Shown: positions 24,639-59,175 of the stretch, piece by piece
How the letters are laid out: each line of letters begins with the position of its first letter
Numbering within the stretch: the first letter of the stretch is position 1
Assembly: GCA_045590875.1 (NCBI GenBank)
Contig: JAZNRT010000048.1
Coordinates: 1 to 59,175 of the forward strand
Direction: 5' to 3'
Source: Acutalibacteraceae bacterium
Lineage (GTDB): Bacteria > Bacillota > Clostridia > Oscillospirales > Acutalibacteraceae
DNA: 59,175 bases
Made by a program: the position numbers and the translations under genes
The notes under the pieces: model-generated
Database searches by the model: none
Seen by the model: the letters and a program-made list of their open reading frames with translations, nothing else
Told to the model about the DNA's origin: nothing

Positions 24639-24729
24639 GTATAAAAATGATACTTGTTCTAAGGCTGGTGGTATTGTATAATAAAGGTGTATAGGTGGCT
24701 TTATGCCAAAAATAATGGAGGAAGCATAT

Positions 24730-27000
24730 ATGAAAACACAAGCCAAAGGATTTACAGCACTGTTTTTATGCATGGCAATTTCTCTTTCCACACTCACTCT
24801 TTCGGTCTTTGCCAATACCGAAGCTGTGGAATACACAGATATCTCAACCGTAGAGCAGCTACTTAGTATAGAAGATAATTTATCGGGTAATTATCGCTTG
24901 GTAAACGATATAATATTCGGCGAAACAGATACTTTTTCTCCAATCGGAGACGGCACAGCAAAATCCGGTTGGTTTACAGGCACTCTCGACGGCAACGGTT
25001 ATACTATCAGAAATTTACATATTGCGCCCCCCGATGCCACAAGTAGCACAACCTTCGGTGGGTTGTTTGAATATGTTTACCAAGCTACAATTCAAAATCT
25101 TATAATCGAAAACGTATCTGCCACCATAGGTGATTTTCAGTATCTCAATTTAGGAGCCCTCGGCGGTACTATATCAAAAAGCACTATTGAAAACTGTTAT
25201 GTCAGCGGTAGCTTTAAGCTTACAACAGGCGGCAGCTCCGTATTTGTAGGCGGCATATGCGGCGTAGGTGCAAACACCACCATTAAAAATGTCGGCTCCG
25301 ATGTGGATTTAAGCTACAGTGACGTGGTTAATAACAACATATATGCAGGCGGTCTGTCGGGTAATTTCGACGGTCAGATAATCTCCTGCGGTAACGAGGG
25401 CAATTTTGCCGTAACGGGAACCACCAATGATTTTTCTGCAATTCTTGGCGGTATGGTAGGAATGACAGATACAAGGTCACTTCATATAGAAAACTGTATT
25501 AACAGAGGTAATATAAGTGCCGACACAAAGGCAACCGCAATTGCGGGTGGTATGGTGGGAAAAAGCTCTGTTACTACCACACTTGTAGGCAATATGAATT
25601 TTGGCACAATTTCTGCAGTATCCACCTTTGAATCAGGCTTTAACCCCGATGCTCATAAAATAGGTTCAGGTGCTATTGCCGGAATTGCCGATGCAACCTG
25701 TACCGACAACTATTATTTAAGCGGCAGTAATTCTTCTGCTTGTAGTAGCGGAAATACTACAGCAGCGGCTAAAACCTTACTGGAGCTTCGGGAAATAGCA
25801 GCAAATAATGAATGTTTTTATCTTCCCAAAAGTGCCACCGAAACCCCTTGGATAGCTGCTTGGCAGTGCTATTCTTCGGGCCACACCGAGGTTATCGACG
25901 AGGCAGTTGCCCCCGATTGCGATAGCACAGGTCTTACCGAAGGTAAACACTGCTCAGTTTGTAACGAAGTTCTTGTAGCTCAAGAAGAAGTTGCGGCACT
26001 CGGTCATACCGAGGGCGAAGCAGTAACAGAAAATGTAGTTAATGCAGACTGCGATACAGATGGCTCTTACGACACCGTCATATACTGCTCGGTATGTGAC
26101 GAAGAACTCTCAAGAGTGACCACACCTGTTGCGGCACTTGGTCATAGCTATGATGACGATTTCGATACCGATTGTAACGTTTGCGGCGAAACCCGTGAAG
26201 TTCTTATAGCAACCTTTGTTGACAAAAACGGCAACGAAATTTTCAAGGCTATCATTGGTGCCGACGGCAAGATTTCTGCCGACGATATAGCTGCCGCTGA
26301 AGCAAAGGCTCCCGTAGAGTTCGGTTACGACCGCGATGGTTGGGATAGGGATCTAGACCTTGTATACACCGAAAGCTTCACAATTAAGGCTCGGTACATC
26401 AAGAGCACCGAAACCTATACAGTTACTCTTACCGATACAAACCATAATGTTGCCACAAGTGAAATCGCATTAGATCAACGCTTCACTATTGAAGACGAGA
26501 ATGCACTTTCCTTCATCGTTAACGGTCAGGTGATCGGCGGTGCAGGCGAAGTAACACTTTACGGCTGTGGTGAACTCGAAATCGTTGCTTCTGATGAAGC
26601 TGCTCCCACAACACCTGTTGTAGCAATCCTTAAGAGCGATATCTTAAAGATGGCTGACGGCACAAATGCCCTTCGTATTTTCACAAATGTTTACAATCCT
26701 GAAGATGCCGCTATCACCGATCAGGGCGTTATCTTCATCTCCGGCACCGACTATAATAATTACGGATTTGAAAATGATGCTACTAACTTCACCAAGGATA
26801 AGATTGAGGGAGTATGGGCGGCTAACAGATATGTAATATTAAATAGCACAAAAGACGCAGACCAGATGCTTGCAACTCTCGAAGGTATTGCTAACATAAA
26901 TGGTCTCAAGCGCGTTGCTCGTGCGTACGCAGTTGTAAGTGGAGAAACAATCTACAGTGATTACGTTTCAGTTAACGATATGTACATTGCTAATAACTAA
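24730..27000 (+). CDS. secreted GLUG-motif repeat protein with Cys/His repeat modules
   Basis: Signal peptide [28 protein letters not shown]. Repeated GG(L/I/M)xG GLUG-like motifs. Three GH-x-C-x-G-x-C-x2-C modules. The ATG at 24730 lies 8 nt after GGAGGA. Confidence 0.75.
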
Positions 27001-27045
27001 GAAAAAAGCTTCCGTTTTGGGCACCCTCCGTAAGGAAGGTGCCCC

Positions 27046-27144
27046 AGTTATATTCGCCTTGACACGCGAGTGATATTGCTTCGCAGTGATATGATACTTC
27101 GTATCGTGATATTGTCCTTCGGACAGTTTAAGGGCGAATATAAT
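27046..27144 (+). repeat. internal array: 5 units of AGT(T/G)ATATT, each followed by a short GC hairpin
   Basis: 9-mers at 27046, 27069, 27085, 27106 and 27125. Closed by GGCGAATATAAT (27133-27144), which is complementary to the first unit. Confidence 0.8.
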
Positions 27145-27285
27145 ACCACTGAAACCGCAAGGTTTCAATATCACTTTTGCATGATAAGGCAAAAATAAAA
27201 CTGTGAGCCCTGTCTCGCAATATCACTATTAAAGATTGAGTTTAGATTCTTTGAGATAGGTATTATTCAAAGTATGTAACCCACT

Positions 27286-27317
27286 ATGACACTTTCAAAC
27301 TGAAAGTGTCATTTTTA
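27286..27317 (+). terminator. rho-independent terminator (plus strand) inside repeat copy 1
   Basis: 12-bp stem ATGACACTTTCA / TGAAAGTGTCAT followed by TTTTTAT. Confidence 0.6.
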
Positions 27318-27319
27318 TA

Positions 27320-27361
27320 TTAAAAAAACAAATGGAGAGCACTTCTTTACGAAGTGTCTCC
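27320..27361 (-). terminator. rho-independent terminator of the ior-paaK-ACT operon (minus strand)
   Basis: GGAGACACTTC gtaaa GAAGTGCTCTCC followed by ATTTGTTTTTTT on the minus strand. Confidence 0.65.
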
Positions 27362-27416
27362 ATTTTGACGGAAGCTTTTTTAAAAATTTCTGCTAATAAA
27401 AGTGTGTAGGTTGTTA

Positions 27417-27845
27417 TTAAAGCTTGGCAATATCGTTGCCGCTGAGCAGAGTTACACCTGCATTTTTGAGTGCTGTTTCAGCGCCCTCGGAATCGTCTAC
27501 ACGGATTACTACATATGCCTCTTTGCCTGATTTTGCAACGAAAGCGTAGAGATATTCAAGGTTAATGCCTGCATCTGACAGCACCTTAATTTCGCTTGCA
27601 AGTCCGCCGGGACGGTCGCTGGTGCAAACTGCAATAACATCTGTAACAGTGCTTATAAAACCACCCTCAGCAAGGGCAAGCGCTGCCTTTTCATTGTTAT
27701 CGGTAATCATTCTTAAAATTCCGAAATCCTTTGTATCTGCAATAGAAAGTGCGCGGATTTCGATGTGCGCCTCAGCTAGGGTGTTAAGCACCTCTACAAG
27801 GGCGCCCTTTTCGTTTTGAACAAAAACTGAAATCTGCTTAACCAT
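27417..27845 (-). CDS. ACT-domain protein (tandem ACT)
   Basis: 142 aa with two ACT-like beta-alpha-beta-beta-alpha-beta halves. AGGAGG RBS. Typical last gene of ior/paaK clusters. Confidence 0.8.
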   Translation of the reverse strand: MVKQISVFVQNEKGALVEVLNTLAEAHIEIRALSIADTKDFGILRMITDNNEKAALALAEGGFISTVTDVIAVCTSDRPGGLASEIKVLSDAGINLEYLYAFVAKSGKEAYVVIRVDDSEGAETALKNAGVTLLSGNDIAKL

Positions 27846-34334: not shown

Positions 34335-34545
34335 ATTTCCTCTAAACCGGCTACCGCAGTTCACTTTGAGGAGTTTATCATTCGGGTATTTCGACTTGAT
34401 GCTTTTGCTTTCACCTTCTCAAGATAGGCTCTCAATGGCTTGTCCCCGATTTGCGGCATCGGGCAAGAAAACAAAATATTAAACTGCATCTCACGGCGAC
34501 GGGCTCGTACAGGATTTGCACCTGTTTCCCCGAAAAGATAGACGT
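34335..34545 (-). promoter_or_regulatory. putative cobalamin (B12) riboswitch
   Basis: Minus-strand core GGGGAAACAGGTGCAAATCCTGTACGAGCCCGTCGCCGTGAG resembles the conserved GGGAA..GGTG.AAATCC...CCCGC..CTGT core. A degenerate B12-box-like AAGCCATTGAGAGCCTATC follows. The downstream genes are typical B12-regulated cargo. Confidence 0.6.
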
Positions 34546-34571
34546 TTTATGTATATTTCAACAATTGGATA

Positions 34572-50101: not shown

Positions 50102-52978
50102 TTATTTGGTTTTCTTACTTTTAACCTTAGACCAACCTGAATAAATTCTTTTGCCCTTGACGGTTTTAAAGGTGCGTATGCGAACATAGTAGGTCTTTTT
50201 CGCCTTTAATTCTTTTATGGTTTTTGATGTGGTTTTGGTTTTCTTTACCGTAATTTTTTTAGCGTTTTTAAACTTCTTAGAGGTGCTGTACTGAAGCTGA
50301 TAGCCTGAAGTATCCTTTTCCTGCTTCTTCCATTTCACCTTAATGCTTTTTGTTTTAGCAGTAAGCTTTGAAAGTGAGGTGGCTTTTGGGGTTATCTTGA
50401 ATGTTAAAACCTCTTTGCCTTTATACTTGCCTCTGAAATTCACAGTTACTTTGTATTCACCAATCTTTTTGCGCCCTGAGGAATATTTAACTGTGTAATC
50501 TGTGCCTTTAATAAGCTTTTGACCCTTTGTGTTTTTCACTGTAACGGTGGGCTTTCGTGATTTCCCGTTATAAGTGTAAGAGGTTTTTGAGAGCTTAACT
50601 GATTTTATTTTCCTTATAGTGCTGTTGGAGATGTTGCCGCATACCGAACAGGCTTTTTCTAGATTTCCTGCCGATTTCATTGTGGCTTTTTTAGTTATCT
50701 TTTCGGTGTAGGAGTGACCCAGAGCGGAGATAATCTGCTGTTTTTCTAAAACTGTGCCACAAACTCCGCAGCTTAAGCCCTCGCTTTTTCCAGGTGTTGT
50801 GCAGGTGGGCGGGGTGGTAGAAACCACAACTGCGGTGTGGGGAGTAGTTTCTTTATTACTAAGCTTTATTCCTCCACACTGATTGCAAACCGATTTGACC
50901 TGACCCTCATTTTTGCAGGTGGCATTTGTGAGTATAGTTTCGGAGAGGGTAGGGTGTGTGCAATTTTTAAAGTTAAGGTCTTCGGTAGCGCCCACAGTAA
51001 CATTAAGGGTAGTTTCCTTGCCGCCAAAGGCAATAGTAACTATTTGTTTGCCCACAGCTTGTGAATTGAAACCCTTTATCTGGAAACCGTCGGTAATAGT
51101 TTTTTTGGTGCCGTCGCTGTAAGATGCGGTGAGGGTAAGACCAACAGAGTTAAAGGCTTGCCTCACAGAATAAAGGGTAATGGGTTTGGTCGCAACAGTT
51201 ACATCAGTCACTTTAGGTGCAGTGCTTTCCCACACAGCATATAGCACACTTATACAATTTCCCTTAACGGCATTTGGATTTATGCTTGAGGAAAGCAAAT
51301 TTTTATCATCTTGGCTAAATACTGTGCCGCCTTGTGGCTTGGTGCTCCAGCCCTTAAAAGTATAGCCGTCGCGAACAAGTCCAAAGGTGGATGCATTGTT
51401 AAGTCCATTTGATTTTTTTGCACCGTATGTCCACACTTGATTGTGTTTTTTACCGTCGGCCACCTTGTAAATCATATTATTGGAAAGTGTATGCTTGTCC
51501 TTTTTGAGTGTACCGCCGTTTGCATTATAATAAACGATGAGCTTGTGTGGGGACCAAACCGGGTAGAAGGTAATGGTATCGTTTGTGGTGGCGTTAGCAA
51601 ACCAAGATTTGTTGAACGTATAGCCTATGCCGCTTTTATAAACGCTTTTCTTATAGCCAAAAAGGTTGATTTCTTCTTGGGTTTTCCAGCCAACACCTGC
51701 GCAGTACCAAGTTCTATCGGAATTTCGGTAGGCATTCCAACCACCGAAAAGATTGCCCACCTTAGTAAAGGTGTTGGGACTTAAAGTAAGGATATCGCTG
51801 TATTTGGCGGTGGTCCCCGTCATGTTGCCGATGCCACCGTTTGAGTTGTAGTTAATTTTAAGACTTAGCGCCGAAAGAGGTATCCAGGCGGCTCTGTAAT
51901 AGCCCCCTGAAACGGGGTAAAGCAGTTGTGCCGCCACCGAGTTGTGATCCACAATAAATGAAACATCACCTTGGGCGGTATAGCCGATTTCTTCTTTCAG
52001 GTCACCGCGAGCGTAGGTTTCAATAAGCCTGTCCGCCTTTATGCTAAAGGCGTTGTAATCAGGATTAAAGAAAACAGAGGTCTTAACATATCCCTGGGTG
52101 TTCTTCCCGCCTGACTGGGGATATGTAACCTTGCACCAACCATTGCTTAAAAGCTCGGTTATATAGCAAATGTCATTTCCACCGATTTTTTGCGGCTTTG
52201 CCTTTCCGCCCACCGATTCGTAGGCTACGGTGTCCTGACCCGATAGGGTGATTGCTTTTATTGAATTTGGGAAGCTCACCTCAGGCCTACCTAGGCATTC
52301 ACTGCAATTTGGTATAGTCTTGCTGTTACCTGTATAGTAATAATAACCGCAAGAGGAGCATTTGTTATACTGATTGTGTGGGTGGTCACTGTCGTAGCCC
52401 GATACATAACTGTGGTTGTGGGATTCTGCAAGGGAATAGGGGGCAATTGCAACCGAGGTAAAGGATTCCTTTAGCCTCGATTTAGTCATTGTGGCACCCC
52501 AACGGATAACACAGTTGTTCTGATAATTGCAATCGGCATAGGTTATGGTATCACCGCTTACACCGTATACAAATGCAGAGTGGCCGTTAAAATTATAACG
52601 GATTACATCGCCGGGCTTTAAAGAGGTGTCTATATAGTTTTTATCATAAGAAACATTCCATTGAATATAGGGCTCGCCGCCGTATGCGGTATATGCCAGC
52701 TGAAAAGCAAAGCCCATACATTGAATGGCATAGTTTTTGTATGTGTTGCAACCGCAGGAGCCGTTGTAGGTGCATTCGTTTCTGTGATGTGTGCAAGGGG
52801 TGGAGGTGTAGCTCTCAGAATTCCCGCCGTTCCAAAACTTTCCGTGAGGATATTTTTCCTGCATATCCGAAAGGCTCATAACCGCCGCATGTGTTTCGGT
52901 TAAAACATATGGACAAAAGGGAAGCAGAAAGGCAAAACAAAGCAAAACTGATATAATTCTTACAACTTTTTTGCTCAT
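50102..52978 (-). CDS. large secreted multidomain protein: papain-like (CHAP/NlpC-type) amidase, SH3-like domain, Listeria-Bacteroides (Flg_new) repeats, Ig-like domain, Cys/His repeat modules, Lys-rich Ig/Fn3-like C-terminus
   Basis: Signal peptide MSKKVVRIISVLLCFAFLLPF. QCMGFA...GHSAFV Cys/His pair. GWNAY / GYTFKGW / FYPVW repeats. C..C modules. A C-terminal ~200 aa very rich in Lys. The ATG at 52978 lies 7 nt after AAGGAGA. Confidence 0.8.
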   Translation of the reverse strand: MSKKVVRIISVLLCFAFLLPFCPYVLTETHAAVMSLSDMQEKYPHGKFWNGGNSESYTSTPCTHHRNECTYNGSCGCNTYKNYAIQCMGFAFQLAYTAYGGEPYIQWNVSYDKNYIDTSLKPGDVIRYNFNGHSAFVYGVSGDTITYADCNYQNNCVIRWGATMTKSRLKESFTSVAIAPYSLAESHNHSYVSGYDSDHPHNQYNKCSSCGYYYYTGNSKTIPNCSECLGRPEVSFPNSIKAITLSGQDTVAYESVGGKAKPQKIGGNDICYITELLSNGWCKVTYPQSGGKNTQGYVKTSVFFNPDYNAFSIKADRLIETYARGDLKEEIGYTAQGDVSFIVDHNSVAAQLLYPVSGGYYRAAWIPLSALSLKINYNSNGGIGNMTGTTAKYSDILTLSPNTFTKVGNLFGGWNAYRNSDRTWYCAGVGWKTQEEINLFGYKKSVYKSGIGYTFNKSWFANATTNDTITFYPVWSPHKLIVYYNANGGTLKKDKHTLSNNMIYKVADGKKHNQVWTYGAKKSNGLNNASTFGLVRDGYTFKGWSTKPQGGTVFSQDDKNLLSSSINPNAVKGNCISVLYAVWESTAPKVTDVTVATKPITLYSVRQAFNSVGLTLTASYSDGTKKTITDGFQIKGFNSQAVGKQIVTIAFGGKETTLNVTVGATEDLNFKNCTHPTLSETILTNATCKNEGQVKSVCNQCGGIKLSNKETTPHTAVVVSTTPPTCTTPGKSEGLSCGVCGTVLEKQQIISALGHSYTEKITKKATMKSAGNLEKACSVCGNISNSTIRKIKSVKLSKTSYTYNGKSRKPTVTVKNTKGQKLIKGTDYTVKYSSGRKKIGEYKVTVNFRGKYKGKEVLTFKITPKATSLSKLTAKTKSIKVKWKKQEKDTSGYQLQYSTSKKFKNAKKITVKKTKTTSKTIKELKAKKTYYVRIRTFKTVKGKRIYSGWSKVKSKKTK

Positions 52979-53028
52979 ATATATCTCCTTCAAGAGTGGC
53001 ATTAACATAATATAGTGTATACATTTTT

Positions 53029-53057: not shown

Positions 53058-53127
53058 TAAACGACAAGGCTCGTAACACAAAAAAAGAACTACCCGAAGA
53101 GGCGCACTCCGTAAGGAAGTGCGCCTC

Positions 53128-53223
53128 AGTTATATTCGCCCAAGGCGAGTTATATTGCTTCGCAGTTATATTTGGACGTTGTCCAAGTTATATTCGCTTC
53201 GCGAGTTTTATGGCGAATATAAT
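53128..53223 (+). repeat. internal array: 5 units of AGTTATATT, each followed by a short GC hairpin
   Basis: 9-mers at 53128, 53148, 53164, 53186 and 53204 (the last is degenerate). Closed by GGCGAATATAAT at 53212-53223. Confidence 0.8.
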
Positions 53224-53414
53224 ACAACTGAAACTGAAAGTTTCAATATCACTTTCCTTTTTAAAATATCTCGCCACAGGCGAGGAATTTTAAAAAGAAA
53301 ATATCACTGTGAGACCCGTCTCACAATATCACTAATATTTTTATCTCTGAGATAGGTATAAATTCAAAGTATGTAACCCACTATGACACTTTCAACTTGA
53401 AAGTGTCAATTATT

Positions 53415-53460
53415 ATGTAAAAAGAAAATTGGGAGAACACTTCTTTATAAAGTGTCTCCC
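53415..53460 (-). terminator. rho-independent terminator of the dnaK operon (minus strand), part of repeat copy 2
   Basis: GGGAGACACTT tataa AGAAGTGTTCTCCC followed by AATTTTCTTTTT on the minus strand. Confidence 0.65.
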
Positions 53461-53495
53461 AAAGAGTTTCGAGTAGTCCTATTAAAATTCACACG

Positions 53496-58709: not shown

Positions 58710-59175
<466 letters not shown>

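What the first reader, a model, noticed from the sequence alone, without database searches (positions are those of the whole stretch)
27019..27361. Two-copy ~350-nt intergenic element with covarying hairpins: candidate novel structured RNA or BOX-like modular repeat (copy 1)
27019-27361 and 53101-53460 are collinear and in the same orientation. The right ~115 nt (...TGAGATAGGTAT...CAAAGTATGTAACCCACTATGACACTTTCAA...) is nearly identical between copies. The left ~230 nt has diverged, yet at least six hairpins occupy the same positions with different sequences.
- Hairpin 1: GGGCACC...GTAA...GGTGCCC in copy 1, GGCGCACTCC-GTAA-GGAAGTGCGCC in copy 2.
- Hairpin 2: GAAACC-GCAA-GGTTTC in copy 1, GAAACT-GAA-AGTTTC in copy 2.
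- Hairpin 3: TTTTGC...GCAAAA in copy 1, CTCGCC-ACA-GGCGAG in copy 2.
- Hairpin 4: TGTGAG...CTCGCA in copy 1 (with a U-G pair on the plus strand), TGTGAGA...TCTCACA in copy 2.

Loops are often GNRA (GUAA, GCAA) or UUCG-type when read on the plus strand. Structure conserved over sequence is the hallmark of a functional RNA, or of a hairpin-dependent mobile repeat. No ORF is conserved between the copies.

In copy 1 the element lies between the stop codon of the GLUG surface-protein gene and a plus-strand terminator at 27286-27317. It could therefore be that gene's 3' UTR.
Basis: seen in the sequence. Interest (0 to 1): 0.7.

Follow-up and report, generated by a model that had tools for sequence, protein, structure and literature searches.

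The report
Mobile hairpin-array repeat inside gene terminators
The two look-alike intergenic stretches are copies of a small non-coding repeat, common in gut Clostridia, that sits inside the terminator hairpins of ordinary genes; one arm is the database "Gut-1 RNA", but the evidence suggests its many little hairpins are kept at the DNA level, not as a working RNA.

Summary
27019-27361 and 53101-53460 are the only two copies in the window (73% identity over 375 nt). Their hairpins covary strongly: on 71 related elements 96.5% of cells pair against 75.7% in shuffles.

It is only partly novel. The left arm of copy 1 is Rfam Gut-1 (RF01706, 63.6 bits, cut-off 50); copy 2 scores 34.4.

The whole unit is larger and mirror-built. 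It has an end hairpin, four [GTKATAT + mini-palindrome] modules, a centre GGCGAATATAAT, three or four inverted modules [palindrome + ATATCAC], a conserved tail, and an inverted end hairpin. At least 120 copies occur in gut and rumen Oscillospirales MAGs. No transposase or integrase gene recurs nearby.

Copy 1 lies in the loop of the terminator of an ACT-domain gene, and relatives carry that terminator intact. At least 16 elements are bracketed by locus-specific split terminators. Other family members start 32-46 nt after a tRNA gene.

Stems are almost purely Watson-Crick, with G·T no commoner than A·C. Both strands fold equally well. Loop types are strand-specific and mirrored: C(GNA)G DNA mini-hairpin loops lie on the minus strand of the left arm and the plus strand of the right arm.

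Best reading: a MITE/BIME-like DNA repeat that targets terminators, not a cis-acting 3'-UTR RNA. How it moves, and whether it is transcribed, is unknown.

The parts
27002..27015 (.). Left half of the host's split bidirectional terminator (AAAAAAGCTTCCGT). It pairs with 27368-27381.
   Evidence: 14/14 inverted repeat. The homologous terminator is intact in relatives, as AAAGCCTTCC-AAAAC-GGAAGGCTTTT directly after the ACT gene.
27015..27019 (.). TTTTG, repeated at 27363-27367. This is a candidate 4-5 bp target-site duplication, not proven.
   Evidence: Read directly from the sequence. Other copies give ambiguous 2-3 nt repeats.
27019..27044 (.). Copy 1 left terminal hairpin hp0 (GGGCACCCTCC-GTAA-GGAAGGTGCCC).
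   Evidence: It corresponds to the family consensus GAGGCRCMCTCC-GTAAG-GAAGKGYGCCTC.
27045..27117 (+). Copy 1 left arm, a match to Rfam Gut-1 (RF01706). Linkers GTTATAT (27047) and GTGATAT (27070, 27086, 27106) are separated by mini-palindromes. A fourth hairpin lies at 27113-27125.
   Evidence: cmscan gives 63.6 bits against a gathering score of 50, E 2e-10.
27132..27144 (.). Centre GGGCGAATATAAT. It is complementary to L1 plus the 5' half of hp1 (GTTATATTCGCC, 27047-27058). It contains TATAAT on the + strand and TATTAT on the - strand.
   Evidence: RNAalifold helix 1 is invariant. A minus-strand promoter-like site, TTGAAA-17-TATTAT, runs 27168->27140.
27143..27226 (.). Copy 1 right arm, made of inverted modules. 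Linkers: ATACCAC (27143), ATATCAC (27168), ATAAAAC (27195), ATATCAC (27220). Palindromes: 27150-27167, 27175-27194, 27202-27219.
   Evidence: The equivalent arm of copy 2 and of L005 matches Gut-1 on the minus strand, at 21 bits and 52 bits.
27227..27332 (+). Copy 1 conserved tail (..TGAGATAGGTAT..CAAAGTATGTAACCCACTATGACACTTTCA..). It includes a terminator-like hairpin at 27286-27312 followed by a T run.
   Evidence: Near-identity to copy 2. The same tail occurs in L006, L018, L043, L058, L098, L104, L113, L114 and L118. Terminator scan.
27333..27362 (.). Copy 1 right terminal hairpin hpT (TGGAGAGCACTTC-TTTAC-GAAGTGTCTCCA). It resembles the reverse complement of hp0, so hp0 and hpT form a hairpin-forming terminal inverted repeat.
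   Evidence: In L043 hpT is GAGGCACACTTCCTTACGAAGTGTGCCTC, almost exactly the reverse complement of the consensus hp0.
27368..27381 (.). Right half of the host's split terminator (ACGGAAGCTTTTTT).
53087..53098 (.). Copy 2: left half of the split dnaJ terminator (GAACTACCCGAA, preceded by an A run). It pairs with 53468-53479 (TTCGAGTAGTCC), with two G.U pairs on the minus (dnaJ) strand.
   Evidence: Relatives with 83-88% identical DnaJ have plain intact terminators after the stop codon and no element.
53099..53460 (.). Copy 2 of the element. Parts: hp0 53099-53127; left arm 53127-53198, with four GTTATAT linkers; centre 53212-53223; right arm with ATATCAC at 53246, 53301 and 53326; an extra nested-hairpin module at 53253-53300; tail 53333-53430; hpT 53431-53460.
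   Evidence: (Gut-1 at 34.4 bits, below the gathering score).
53468..53479 (.). Copy 2: right half of the split dnaJ terminator.

Best explanation
The finding is one of two window copies of a ~340-360 bp non-coding interspersed DNA repeat. The family is widespread in gut and rumen Oscillospirales; the closest relatives of the window are Acutalibacteraceae MAGs.

**Build.** The element is a mirror. It has a terminal hairpin, four [GTKATAT + short perfect palindrome] modules (this arm is what Rfam calls Gut-1), and a centre GGCGAATATAAT. Then come three or four of the same modules in inverted orientation, a family-specific tail with its own terminator-like hairpins, and an inverted copy of the terminal hairpin.

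**Shown.**
- It is multicopy.
- The repeated unit is the element alone.
- It lies in the loops of pre-existing intrinsic terminators, or directly after tRNA or tmRNA genes.
- At least one occupied site is empty in related species.
- Its palindromes are kept almost perfectly Watson-Crick, and are equally good on both strands.

**Inferred.**
- It is, or was, a non-autonomous mobile element that lands in hairpin-forming terminator DNA.
- It is tolerated there because it folds back on itself on either strand and brings terminators of its own.
- The apparent covariation arises or is maintained at the DNA level. Hairpins would form in single-stranded DNA, and intra-palindrome template switching would homogenise the two arms and can flip the loop. 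Selection on one RNA strand is not the cause.
- The heptamers, mirrored in the two arms, are the recognition sites of an unidentified DNA-binding protein, possibly a transposase or recombinase.
- The functional strand of each arm is the one carrying C(GNA)G / C(GNNA)G mini-hairpin loops. That is the strand whose 3' end points outwards.
For: **Multicopy and dispersed.**
All are Clostridia / Oscillospirales-type MAGs.
- At least 10 of the 80 listed matches lie within ~400 nt of a contig end.
- L080 and L015 each carry two copies, 96-98% identical, with unrelated flanks.
- Additional Gut-1 hits occur in the same 8 kb loci.

**Insertion.**
- Copy 1 splits AAAAAAGCTTCCGT / ACGGAAGCTTTTTT.
- Relatives with an 87% identical ACT protein have AAAGCCTTCC-AAAAC-GGAAGGCTTTT intact at the same place.
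- At least 16 elements are bracketed by different 8-18 nt inverted repeats of the form A-run + stem ... stem + T-run.
- Copy 2 splits the dnaJ terminator, while relatives have plain terminators there.
- Type-2 elements were never found between divergent genes (0 of 24), and they occur in both orientations relative to the neighbouring gene.
- 34 of 129 elements start 32-46 nt after a same-strand tRNA gene, across 9 amino-acid identities. One follows a tmRNA gene.

**Mirror architecture.**
- Linker motifs and spacings are given.
- The right arm matches Gut-1 on the minus strand.
- A variant copy has RTGAAAT on the left and ATTTCAY on the right.
- hpT resembles the reverse complement of hp0.

**DNA-level palindromes.**
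- Left stems: 1352 Watson-Crick pairs, 6 G.T and 13 A.C. Right stems: 1641, 25 and 26.
- 495 cells are changed on both sides against 21 changed on one side.
- Folding is equal on the two strands: as DNA -64.1 and -63.6 kcal/mol, as RNA -114 and -119.
- C(GNA)G / C(GNNA)G loops number 199 of 314 on the minus strand of the left arm and 0 on the plus strand. In the right arm they number 109 of 261 on the plus strand and 0 on the minus strand.
- The exact mini-hairpin motif GCGN(N)AGC occurs 118 and 40 times on those strands and 0 times on the opposite strands.
- Such mini-hairpins are extraordinarily stable as DNA and much less so as RNA (PMC13037366).
- Two 96%-identical copies differ in hp0 by one compensated pair plus a flipped loop, TTCG to CGAA. 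Template switching is documented to do this (PMC8794818, PMC8604942).

**Not plasmid- or phage-borne**.
Against: - No transposase, integrase or other protein family recurs next to the copies. The largest family covers 7 of 129. No autonomous partner was found.
- The target-site duplication is unresolved. TTTTG flanks copy 1, but other copies give only 2-3 ambiguous bases, and none is visible in L080.
- The tRNA-adjacent form has no right-end hairpin, so it is not a classical inverted-repeat-bounded MITE.
- The two window copies are only 73% identical, so they are not recent insertions.
- The empty site comes from other species (87% protein identity), not from strains of the same species.
- Strand-specific loop types show that something distinguishes the strands. 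GNRA-type loops would also suit RNA.
- Promoter-like sites at the centre (minus strand, 10 of 12 matches in both copies) leave room for transcription.
- Weinberg et al. rated Gut-1 as certainly an RNA, on covariation.
Confidence: 0.6

Rival explanations
1. **Functional structured RNA(s).** The arrays are transcribed and act as RNA. One form would be one or two small RNAs driven from the AT-rich centre, each a string of GNRA/GNA-capped hairpins separated by single-stranded AAUAUCAC linkers. These could sponge or scaffold an RNA-binding protein. The terminal hairpins would serve as terminators.
For: - Gut-1 is a curated Rfam family that its authors judged to be an RNA.
- Covariation is very strong.
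- On the strands that run outwards from the centre the loops are GNRA-like (GCAA, GUAA, GAAA) or GNA.
- Both copies have a conserved minus-strand promoter-like site, TTGAAA-16/17-TATTAT. In the tRNA-adjacent type, hp0 is a good terminator for that strand.
- The tail is the most conserved part and ends in terminators.
Against: - There are almost no G.U pairs, and G.U is no commoner than A.C on either candidate sense strand.
- One-side-changed cells number 21 against 495 changed on both sides.
- Many loops are GAUA, GUCA or GNA triloops, which are special in DNA rather than RNA.
- The Rfam orientation and the GNRA orientation contradict each other.
- Two Gut-1 units face each other.
- No plus-strand promoter was found for the right arm.
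- In the variant copy the central TATAAT is not kept.
- The linker pairing L:R is not maintained. Most GTT left linkers face CAC right linkers.
Confidence: 0.2
2. **Host-domesticated DNA site cluster.** The element would be eight heptamer sites for a chromosomal DNA-binding protein, arranged as two inverted sets around a promoter-like centre. It would act as an insulator or regulatory cassette between a terminator and the next promoter, spread by recombination rather than transposition.
For: - The heptamers are mirrored and co-vary between arms at family level.
- In a tRNA-adjacent subgroup the array lies between a terminator hairpin and a conserved outward TTGCAC-17-TGnTATAAT promoter with a ribosome-binding site, serving unrelated ORFs.
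- In a subset an XRE-type HTH gene lies directly downstream.
Against: - Site spacing of 16, 20-22 and 29 bp is not in helical phase.
- Palindromes that are free in sequence but perfectly paired have no role in duplex-DNA recognition.
- The window copies sit inside terminator loops between gene ends, where no promoter needs regulating.
- No regulator gene is consistently linked.
Confidence: 0.12
3. **Remnant attachment sites of a site-specific integrative element.** The two arm-site clusters would be fused after loss of the internal genes, as in a CIME. This would explain the position at tRNA 3' ends.
For: - The element is adjacent to tRNA or tmRNA genes on the same strand, at a constant distance.
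- Arm-type-site-like heptamers occur in opposite orientation in the two halves.
- In some loci a degenerate copy of the tRNA T-arm follows the element: L020, L012, L088. L117 has a 47-nt direct repeat on both sides.
Against: - The tRNA-duplicate signal is weak overall: own tRNA scores 16.1 against 14.4 for other tRNAs.
- The window copies and 30 or more others are not at tRNAs but in the terminators of protein-coding genes.
- The terminal hairpins are in inverted, not direct, orientation.
- No integrase lies nearby.
Confidence: 0.05

Closest known systems
Rfam Gut-1 RNA motif (RF01706; Weinberg et al. 2010, PMC2864571)
   Same: The left arm of copy 1 matches the model end to end, with three hairpins separated by GUGAWAU linkers. 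The published alignment with flanks already shows the same larger layout in human-gut contigs. One example is BAAZ01000095.1, which has mirrored AUAUCAC modules and a flanking inverted repeat GGGGCUGCCG..CGGCAGCCCC.
   Different: - The family covers only 77 nt of a ~350-nt unit.
- It was described as a small RNA found only in uncultured human-gut sequence.
- Here it occurs as two facing units inside an inserted repeat, in rumen and gut MAGs of many species.
- Its pairing statistics look like DNA rather than RNA.
- Copy 2 falls below the family threshold.
Pneumococcal BOX / RUP / SPRITE interspersed repeats (Croucher et al. 2011, PMC3049150)
   Same: Both are small non-coding multicopy repeats of Firmicutes with no linked transposase. 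Both are modular with a variable number of internal modules (boxA-boxBn-boxC). Both are predicted to fold tightly, with the ends paired. Both are enriched downstream of genes, and SPRITE resembles a terminator.
   Different: There is no sequence relationship. Here the internal modules are tiny palindromes whose sequences differ between modules and copies while the linkers are conserved. The two halves are mirror images, and the insertion point is the loop of an existing terminator.
REP / BIME elements of enterobacteria (own knowledge)
   Same: Both are clusters of short palindromic units joined by conserved linkers. Units occur in both orientations, and the clusters lie in 3' regions between genes. 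Some insertion sequences (IS1397, ISKpn1) insert into the loops of such palindromes.
   Different: REP stems are conserved in sequence within a genome and are tied to RAYT (Y1) transposases. Here the stems are free in sequence and no such gene was seen nearby.
MITEs with terminal inverted repeats, such as Correia elements (own knowledge; review PMC10969869 listed, not read)
   Same: Size is similar and there is no coding capacity. The element has terminal inverted repeats, many dispersed copies, and an empty site in relatives.
   Different: The terminal repeats are themselves hairpins. The interior is an ordered mirror array rather than a decayed insertion sequence. The target-site duplication is not established, no parent insertion sequence is known, and the tRNA-adjacent form lacks the right-end repeat.
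Integron attC sites (own knowledge)
   Same: Structure is conserved while sequence is not. Function would depend on folding of one DNA strand, and pairing is maintained without G.T tolerance.
   Different: An attC is a single imperfect palindrome with a GTTRRRY core, at the end of a gene cassette and next to an integrase. None of that is present here.

Membership tests
Rfam Gut-1 (RF01706) | Covariance-model score at or above the curated gathering score of 50 bits. | tested here: met
   Copy 1, 27045-27117 (+): 63.6 bits, covering the full model 1-77. Copy 2, 53127-53198: only 34.4 bits, E 6e-5, so not met for that copy. 12 of 18 related elements pass.
Rfam Gut-1 (RF01706) | It is expressed and functions as a non-coding RNA on the modelled strand. 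| not testable with these tools
   No expression data are available. Indirect evidence leans against it: G.U is not enriched, the mirror copy lies on the other strand, and both strands fold equally well.
MITE (non-autonomous DNA transposon) | Small, non-coding, and present in many dispersed copies. | tested here: met
   The element is 343-362 nt. At least 120 loci were found. Intragenomic copies of 96-98% identity have unrelated flanks.
MITE (non-autonomous DNA transposon) | Terminal inverted repeats. | tested here: met
   hp0 and hpT are inverted relatives: GAGGCGCACTCC.. against ..GAAGTGTCTCC. The match is near-perfect in L043. This is not met in the tRNA-adjacent form, which ends at AATATCACT.
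MITE (non-autonomous DNA transposon) | Target-site duplication of fixed length. | tested here: inconclusive
   TTTTG lies on both sides of copy 1. Other copies show 2-3 nt ambiguous repeats, and none is seen in L080.
MITE (non-autonomous DNA transposon) | Occupied and empty sites among relatives. | tested here: met
   The ACT-gene terminator is intact in L124-L129 and split in the window. dnaJ terminators are plain in L132-L134. The comparison is between species, not between strains.
MITE (non-autonomous DNA transposon) | A related autonomous element that encodes the transposase. | tested here: not met
   No recurrent protein family lies within 4 kb of 129 copies. No solo hp0-like end lies next to a gene in ~1 Mb of loci. 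The search was limited to those loci.
BOX-like modular repeat | Distinct end modules enclosing a variable number of tandem internal modules. | tested here: met
   There are 4 left modules and 1-6 right modules. Copy 2 and five other loci carry an extra nested module, and L090 has tandem arrays.
BOX-like modular repeat | Sequence homology to pneumococcal boxA, boxB or boxC. | not tested
   No BOX sequences were compared. No Rfam family other than Gut-1 matched.
REP/BIME | Palindromic units of conserved sequence, associated with a RAYT transposase. | tested here: not met
   Stem sequences vary: 63 of 106 and 73 of 100 are distinct. No recurrent neighbouring gene was found.
Cis-acting 3'-UTR RNA element of the upstream gene | Fixed orientation and a fixed association with one gene family. 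| tested here: not met
   Neighbouring genes are unrelated. The orientation relative to the gene whose terminator is occupied goes both ways, 7 against 9.

The most novel reading that the evidence does not exclude
The Gut-1 'RNA' family would in fact be the arm of a previously unrecognised kind of bacterial repeat, whose working form is folded single-stranded DNA. Mirror arrays of d(C-GNA-G) / d(GCGNAGC) mini-hairpins would sit on the two outward-pointing 3' strands, flanked by heptamer protein sites. The element would home to the loops of intrinsic terminators and to the 3' flank of tRNA genes by a hairpin-dependent mechanism, with no linked transposase. Its stems would be kept perfect by intra-palindrome template switching rather than by selection on RNA.
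Probability: 0.3. Interest if true: 0.75.

Novelty: new variant of a known kind. Interest (0 to 1): 0.55.

Why it matters
- **Reclassification.** It would move a curated Rfam small-RNA family, whose function has been unknown since 2010, into the class of DNA repeats. It would also be a worked example of strong 'covariation' without RNA function. That is a caution for structure-based discovery of non-coding RNAs.
- **Annotation.** It gives annotators of gut and rumen Clostridia genomes a recognisable repeat that breaks assemblies and sits in 3' regions.
- **Targeting.** Insertion into terminator loops, and directly after tRNA genes, without any linked enzyme points to a hairpin-directed targeting mechanism that has not been described for Firmicutes.
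- **Gene expression.** A subgroup carries an outward promoter and ribosome-binding site, so the family may also rewire the expression of neighbouring genes.

Tried and rejected
- **Long-range pairing of left and right linkers** (a ladder of four-way junctions). L3/L4 against R1/R2 show an association (odds ratios 5-12). However, most GTT left linkers face CAC right linkers, so pairing is not maintained.
- **A conserved neighbouring gene** (transposase or integrase). None was found; the largest family covers 7 of 129.
- **A tRNA 3'-end duplicate after the tRNA-adjacent elements**, as a signature of integration. The signal is weak: 16.1 against 14.4, p 0.005, and convincing in only a few loci.
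- **Plasmid or phage carriage.** There were no plasmid hits, one weak phage hit, and two viral contigs with the match at a contig end.
- **Looking up the window's own ACT protein** to find strains of the same species. It is not on record.
- **A metagenome scan for the precise empty site of copy 1.** It returned 120 look-alike terminators from unrelated organisms, none sharing the window's flanks.
- **Defining a target-site duplication** from 16 split-terminator junctions. The result is ambiguous.
- **Solo terminal hairpins or half-elements next to genes.** None were found.
- **A plus-strand promoter for the right arm.** None was found, and the central TATAAT is not kept in the variant copy.
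- **Building a covariance model.** This was not done. The MAFFT alignment of 71 cores already gave clear pair counts.
Full report
**1. The observation**

Window 27019-27361 and 53101-53460 align collinearly on the same strand, with 73% identity over 375 columns (E 6e-53). No third copy exists in the 59 kb window. The last ~110 nt are nearly identical between copies. The left two thirds differ mainly by paired changes in stems. Both strands of copy 1 fold far better than shuffles: z is -7.5 to -9.7 as RNA and -8.0 to -8.7 as DNA.

**2. Part of it is a known family**

cmscan places Rfam Gut-1 (RF01706) on 27045-27117 (+), at 63.6 bits against a cut-off of 50. The equivalent stretch of copy 2 reaches only 34.4 bits.

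Gut-1 was described in 2010 as a candidate small RNA seen only in human-gut metagenomes. No function was given and there has been no later literature. The published alignment with flanks already shows the larger layout found here.

**3. Anatomy**

Reading the two copies and 127 relatives gives one plan:

- **hp0:** a long perfect end hairpin, followed by CA.
- **Left arm:** four linkers GTKATAT, each followed by a small palindrome of the form T-stem-loop-stem-A. Spacings are 20-21, 16 and 20-22 nt.
- **Centre:** GGCGAATATAAT, complementary to the first linker plus the 5' half of the first stem.
- **Right arm:** three or four modules in inverted orientation, each a palindrome followed by ATATCAC.
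- **Tail and hpT:** in the window's subtype, a conserved tail with a terminator-like hairpin (27286-27312 plus a T run), then a last hairpin hpT that resembles the reverse complement of hp0.

The right arm matches the Gut-1 model on the minus strand: 21 bits in copy 2, and 52 bits (above threshold) in L005. The element therefore contains two Gut-1-like units facing each other.

A divergent copy uses RTGAAAT on the left and ATTTCAY on the right. The two linker sets therefore change together.

**4. Distribution**

All are gut or rumen MAGs labelled Clostridia, Eubacteriales, Oscillospiraceae, Acutalibacteraceae, Ruminococcus or Faecousia.

- Many matches lie at contig ends, as expected of repeats that break assemblies.
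- L080 and L015 each hold two copies, 96-98% identical, whose flanks are unrelated.
- Further Gut-1 hits lie in the same 8 kb loci.
- The element is essentially absent from plasmid, phage and viral-contig collections.
- No protein family recurs within 4 kb of the copies; the largest covers 7 of 129.

**5. Where it sits**

*Copy 1.* It is bracketed by a perfect 14-nt inverted repeat, AAAAAAGCTTCCGT (27002-27015) and ACGGAAGCTTTTTT (27368-27381). This is the two halves of a bidirectional terminator between the convergent ORF 24703-27000 and the ACT-domain gene 27417-27845.

Relatives whose ACT protein is 87% identical carry, right after that gene, the intact hairpin AAAGCCTTCC-AAAAC-GGAAGGCTTTT and no element. 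TTTTG lies on both sides of the insert. That may be a target duplication, but other junctions are ambiguous.

*Copy 2.* It splits an imperfect hairpin after dnaJ (53087-53098 / 53468-53479), which has two G.U pairs on the dnaJ strand. Three relatives have ordinary terminators there and no element.

*The family.*
- At least 16 elements of this subtype are enclosed by locus-specific 8-18 nt inverted repeats of the same A-run/stem ... stem/T-run form.
- Such elements were never found between divergent genes (0 of 24). They occur in both orientations relative to the gene whose terminator they occupy, 7 against 9.
- A second subtype begins 32-46 nt after a same-strand tRNA gene, mostly 36-38 nt. 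This covers 34 of 129 elements and nine amino-acid identities. One follows a tmRNA gene.
- In that subtype hp0 is a GAAAAA-stem-loop-stem-TTTTTC hairpin. It travels with the element, because the L080 repeat unit includes it.

**6. The hairpins: real, but not RNA-like**

On a MAFFT alignment of 71 canonical cores:

- 96.5% of cells pair, against 75.7% in shuffles (0/500).
- 495 cells are changed on both sides, against 150 in shuffles (0/500).
- The covariation score is 0.485, against 0.11 or less for versions with the 3' partner slid.

The way the stems vary is unusual.

- Only 21 cells are changed on one side, against 495 on both.
- By direct counting, left stems hold 1352 Watson-Crick pairs, 6 G.T and 13 A.C. 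Right stems hold 1641, 25 and 26.
- G.U is therefore rare and no commoner than A.C on either strand. From general knowledge of RNA families, G.U intermediates are normally frequent.

The loops, in contrast, are strand-specific and mirrored.

- C(GNA)G or C(GNNA)G loops number 199 of 314 on the minus strand of the left arm and none on its plus strand.
- In the right arm they number 109 of 261 on the plus strand and none on the minus strand.
- The exact mini-hairpin motif GCGN(N)AGC occurs 118 and 40 times on those strands and never on the others.

A recent review states that these mini-hairpins are extraordinarily stable and nuclease-resistant as DNA. It adds that they bind SSB poorly and occur at single-strand replication-initiation sites. 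The RNA versions are much weaker, and TTC-loop hairpins are ordinary (PMC13037366).

Two 96%-identical copies in L080 differ in hp0 by one compensated pair plus an inverted loop, TTCG to CGAA. Arm homogenisation and spacer inversion are the documented products of template switching within inverted repeats (PMC8794818, PMC8604942).

**7. Interpretation**

*Shown:* a multicopy, modular, mirror-built, non-coding repeat that occupies terminator loops and tRNA 3' flanks. It has an empty site in related species, and its palindromes are symmetric between strands.

*Inferred:*
- It is, or was, a non-autonomous mobile element that targets hairpin-forming DNA.
- Its palindromes matter in single-stranded DNA and are kept perfect by a DNA-level process.
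- The mirrored heptamers are protein sites.
- It is tolerated in terminators because it folds compactly on either strand and brings its own terminators.

*Unknown:* the enzyme, the exact ends and any target duplication.

The main rival is a functional RNA. It is kept alive by the curated Rfam status, by GNRA-like loops on the outward strands, and by a conserved minus-strand promoter-like site at the centre of both copies. The pairing statistics, the facing arrangement and the loss of the central TATAAT in a variant copy count against it.

Two further rivals fit some tRNA-adjacent copies but not the window's copies: a domesticated protein-site cluster, and fused attachment sites of an integrative element.

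**8. Comparison with what is known**

The left arm of copy 1 is a member of Gut-1 by score. The whole element resembles pneumococcal BOX and SPRITE repeats and enterobacterial BIMEs in lifestyle and modularity (own knowledge). It resembles MITEs in size, inverted ends and empty sites.

It differs from all of them in four ways. It has conserved linkers with sequence-free perfect mini-palindromes. Its two halves mirror each other. Its insertion point is a terminator loop. No partner gene is known.

I therefore file it as a new variant of a known kind, the interspersed palindromic or MITE-like repeat. Its 'novel structured RNA' alternative is both partly pre-empted by Rfam and weakened by the evidence.

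Noticed in passing
L007, L019 (two copies), L041, L052, L072, L077 (downstream of the last ATATCAC): In a tRNA-adjacent subgroup, a conserved module lies 24 nt after the element. It reads TTGCAC-17-TGcTATA(A/C)T, then AGGCGGTGA, then ATG, and it precedes unrelated small ORFs. The repeat appears to deliver an outward promoter and ribosome-binding site.
   Followed up: partly
L080 169-384 and 2455-2670: Two copies are 96% identical. Their end hairpins differ by one compensated base pair and by an inverted loop (TTCG against CGAA), which is a DNA-level palindrome flip.
   Followed up: partly
window 53253-53300: Copy 2 carries an extra nested-hairpin module (TTTCCTTTTTAAAAT-ATCTCGCC-ACA-GGCGAGG-AATTTTAAAAAGAAAA) that copy 1 lacks. 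The same ATATCTCGCC..GGCGAGG module appears in L026, L027, L060, L078, L089 and L112.
   Followed up: partly
L013 2910-3283 and 3325 onward: An element of the family starts about 40 nt after a tmRNA gene (156.9 bits). tRNA-like 3' ends in general seem to be preferred neighbours.
   Followed up: no
L090 (reverse strand, 818-1142): Two arrays lie in tandem after tRNA-Ser. The second lacks the end hairpin and is joined to the first by TTAA.
   Followed up: no
L097, L045, L079, L063, L119, L089, L009: An XRE-type HTH gene lies on the same strand about 100 nt downstream of the element, with its own promoter. It is the only neighbour family seen more than five times.
   Followed up: partly
window 34364-34553 (-): A cobalamin riboswitch aptamer scores 44 bits against a cut-off of 31.5. 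It lies upstream of ORFs on the minus strand.
   Followed up: no
window 58710-59175 (+): The 5' 445 nt of a bacterial 16S rRNA gene run off the end of the window. L134, a relative, also has a 16S start a few hundred nt after dnaJ.
   Followed up: no
The 968-aa ORF 50102-53008 (-) beside copy 2 has Big_3 and fn3 domains.
   Followed up: partly
L117 1-330: A 47-nt direct repeat (..ATCTGTCAAAAACGCAAACCCATCTTTTT(C/T)GTACCCGTTTGAA) lies on both sides of the element, each time followed by a different terminator hairpin. It could be a long duplication made on insertion.
   Followed up: no
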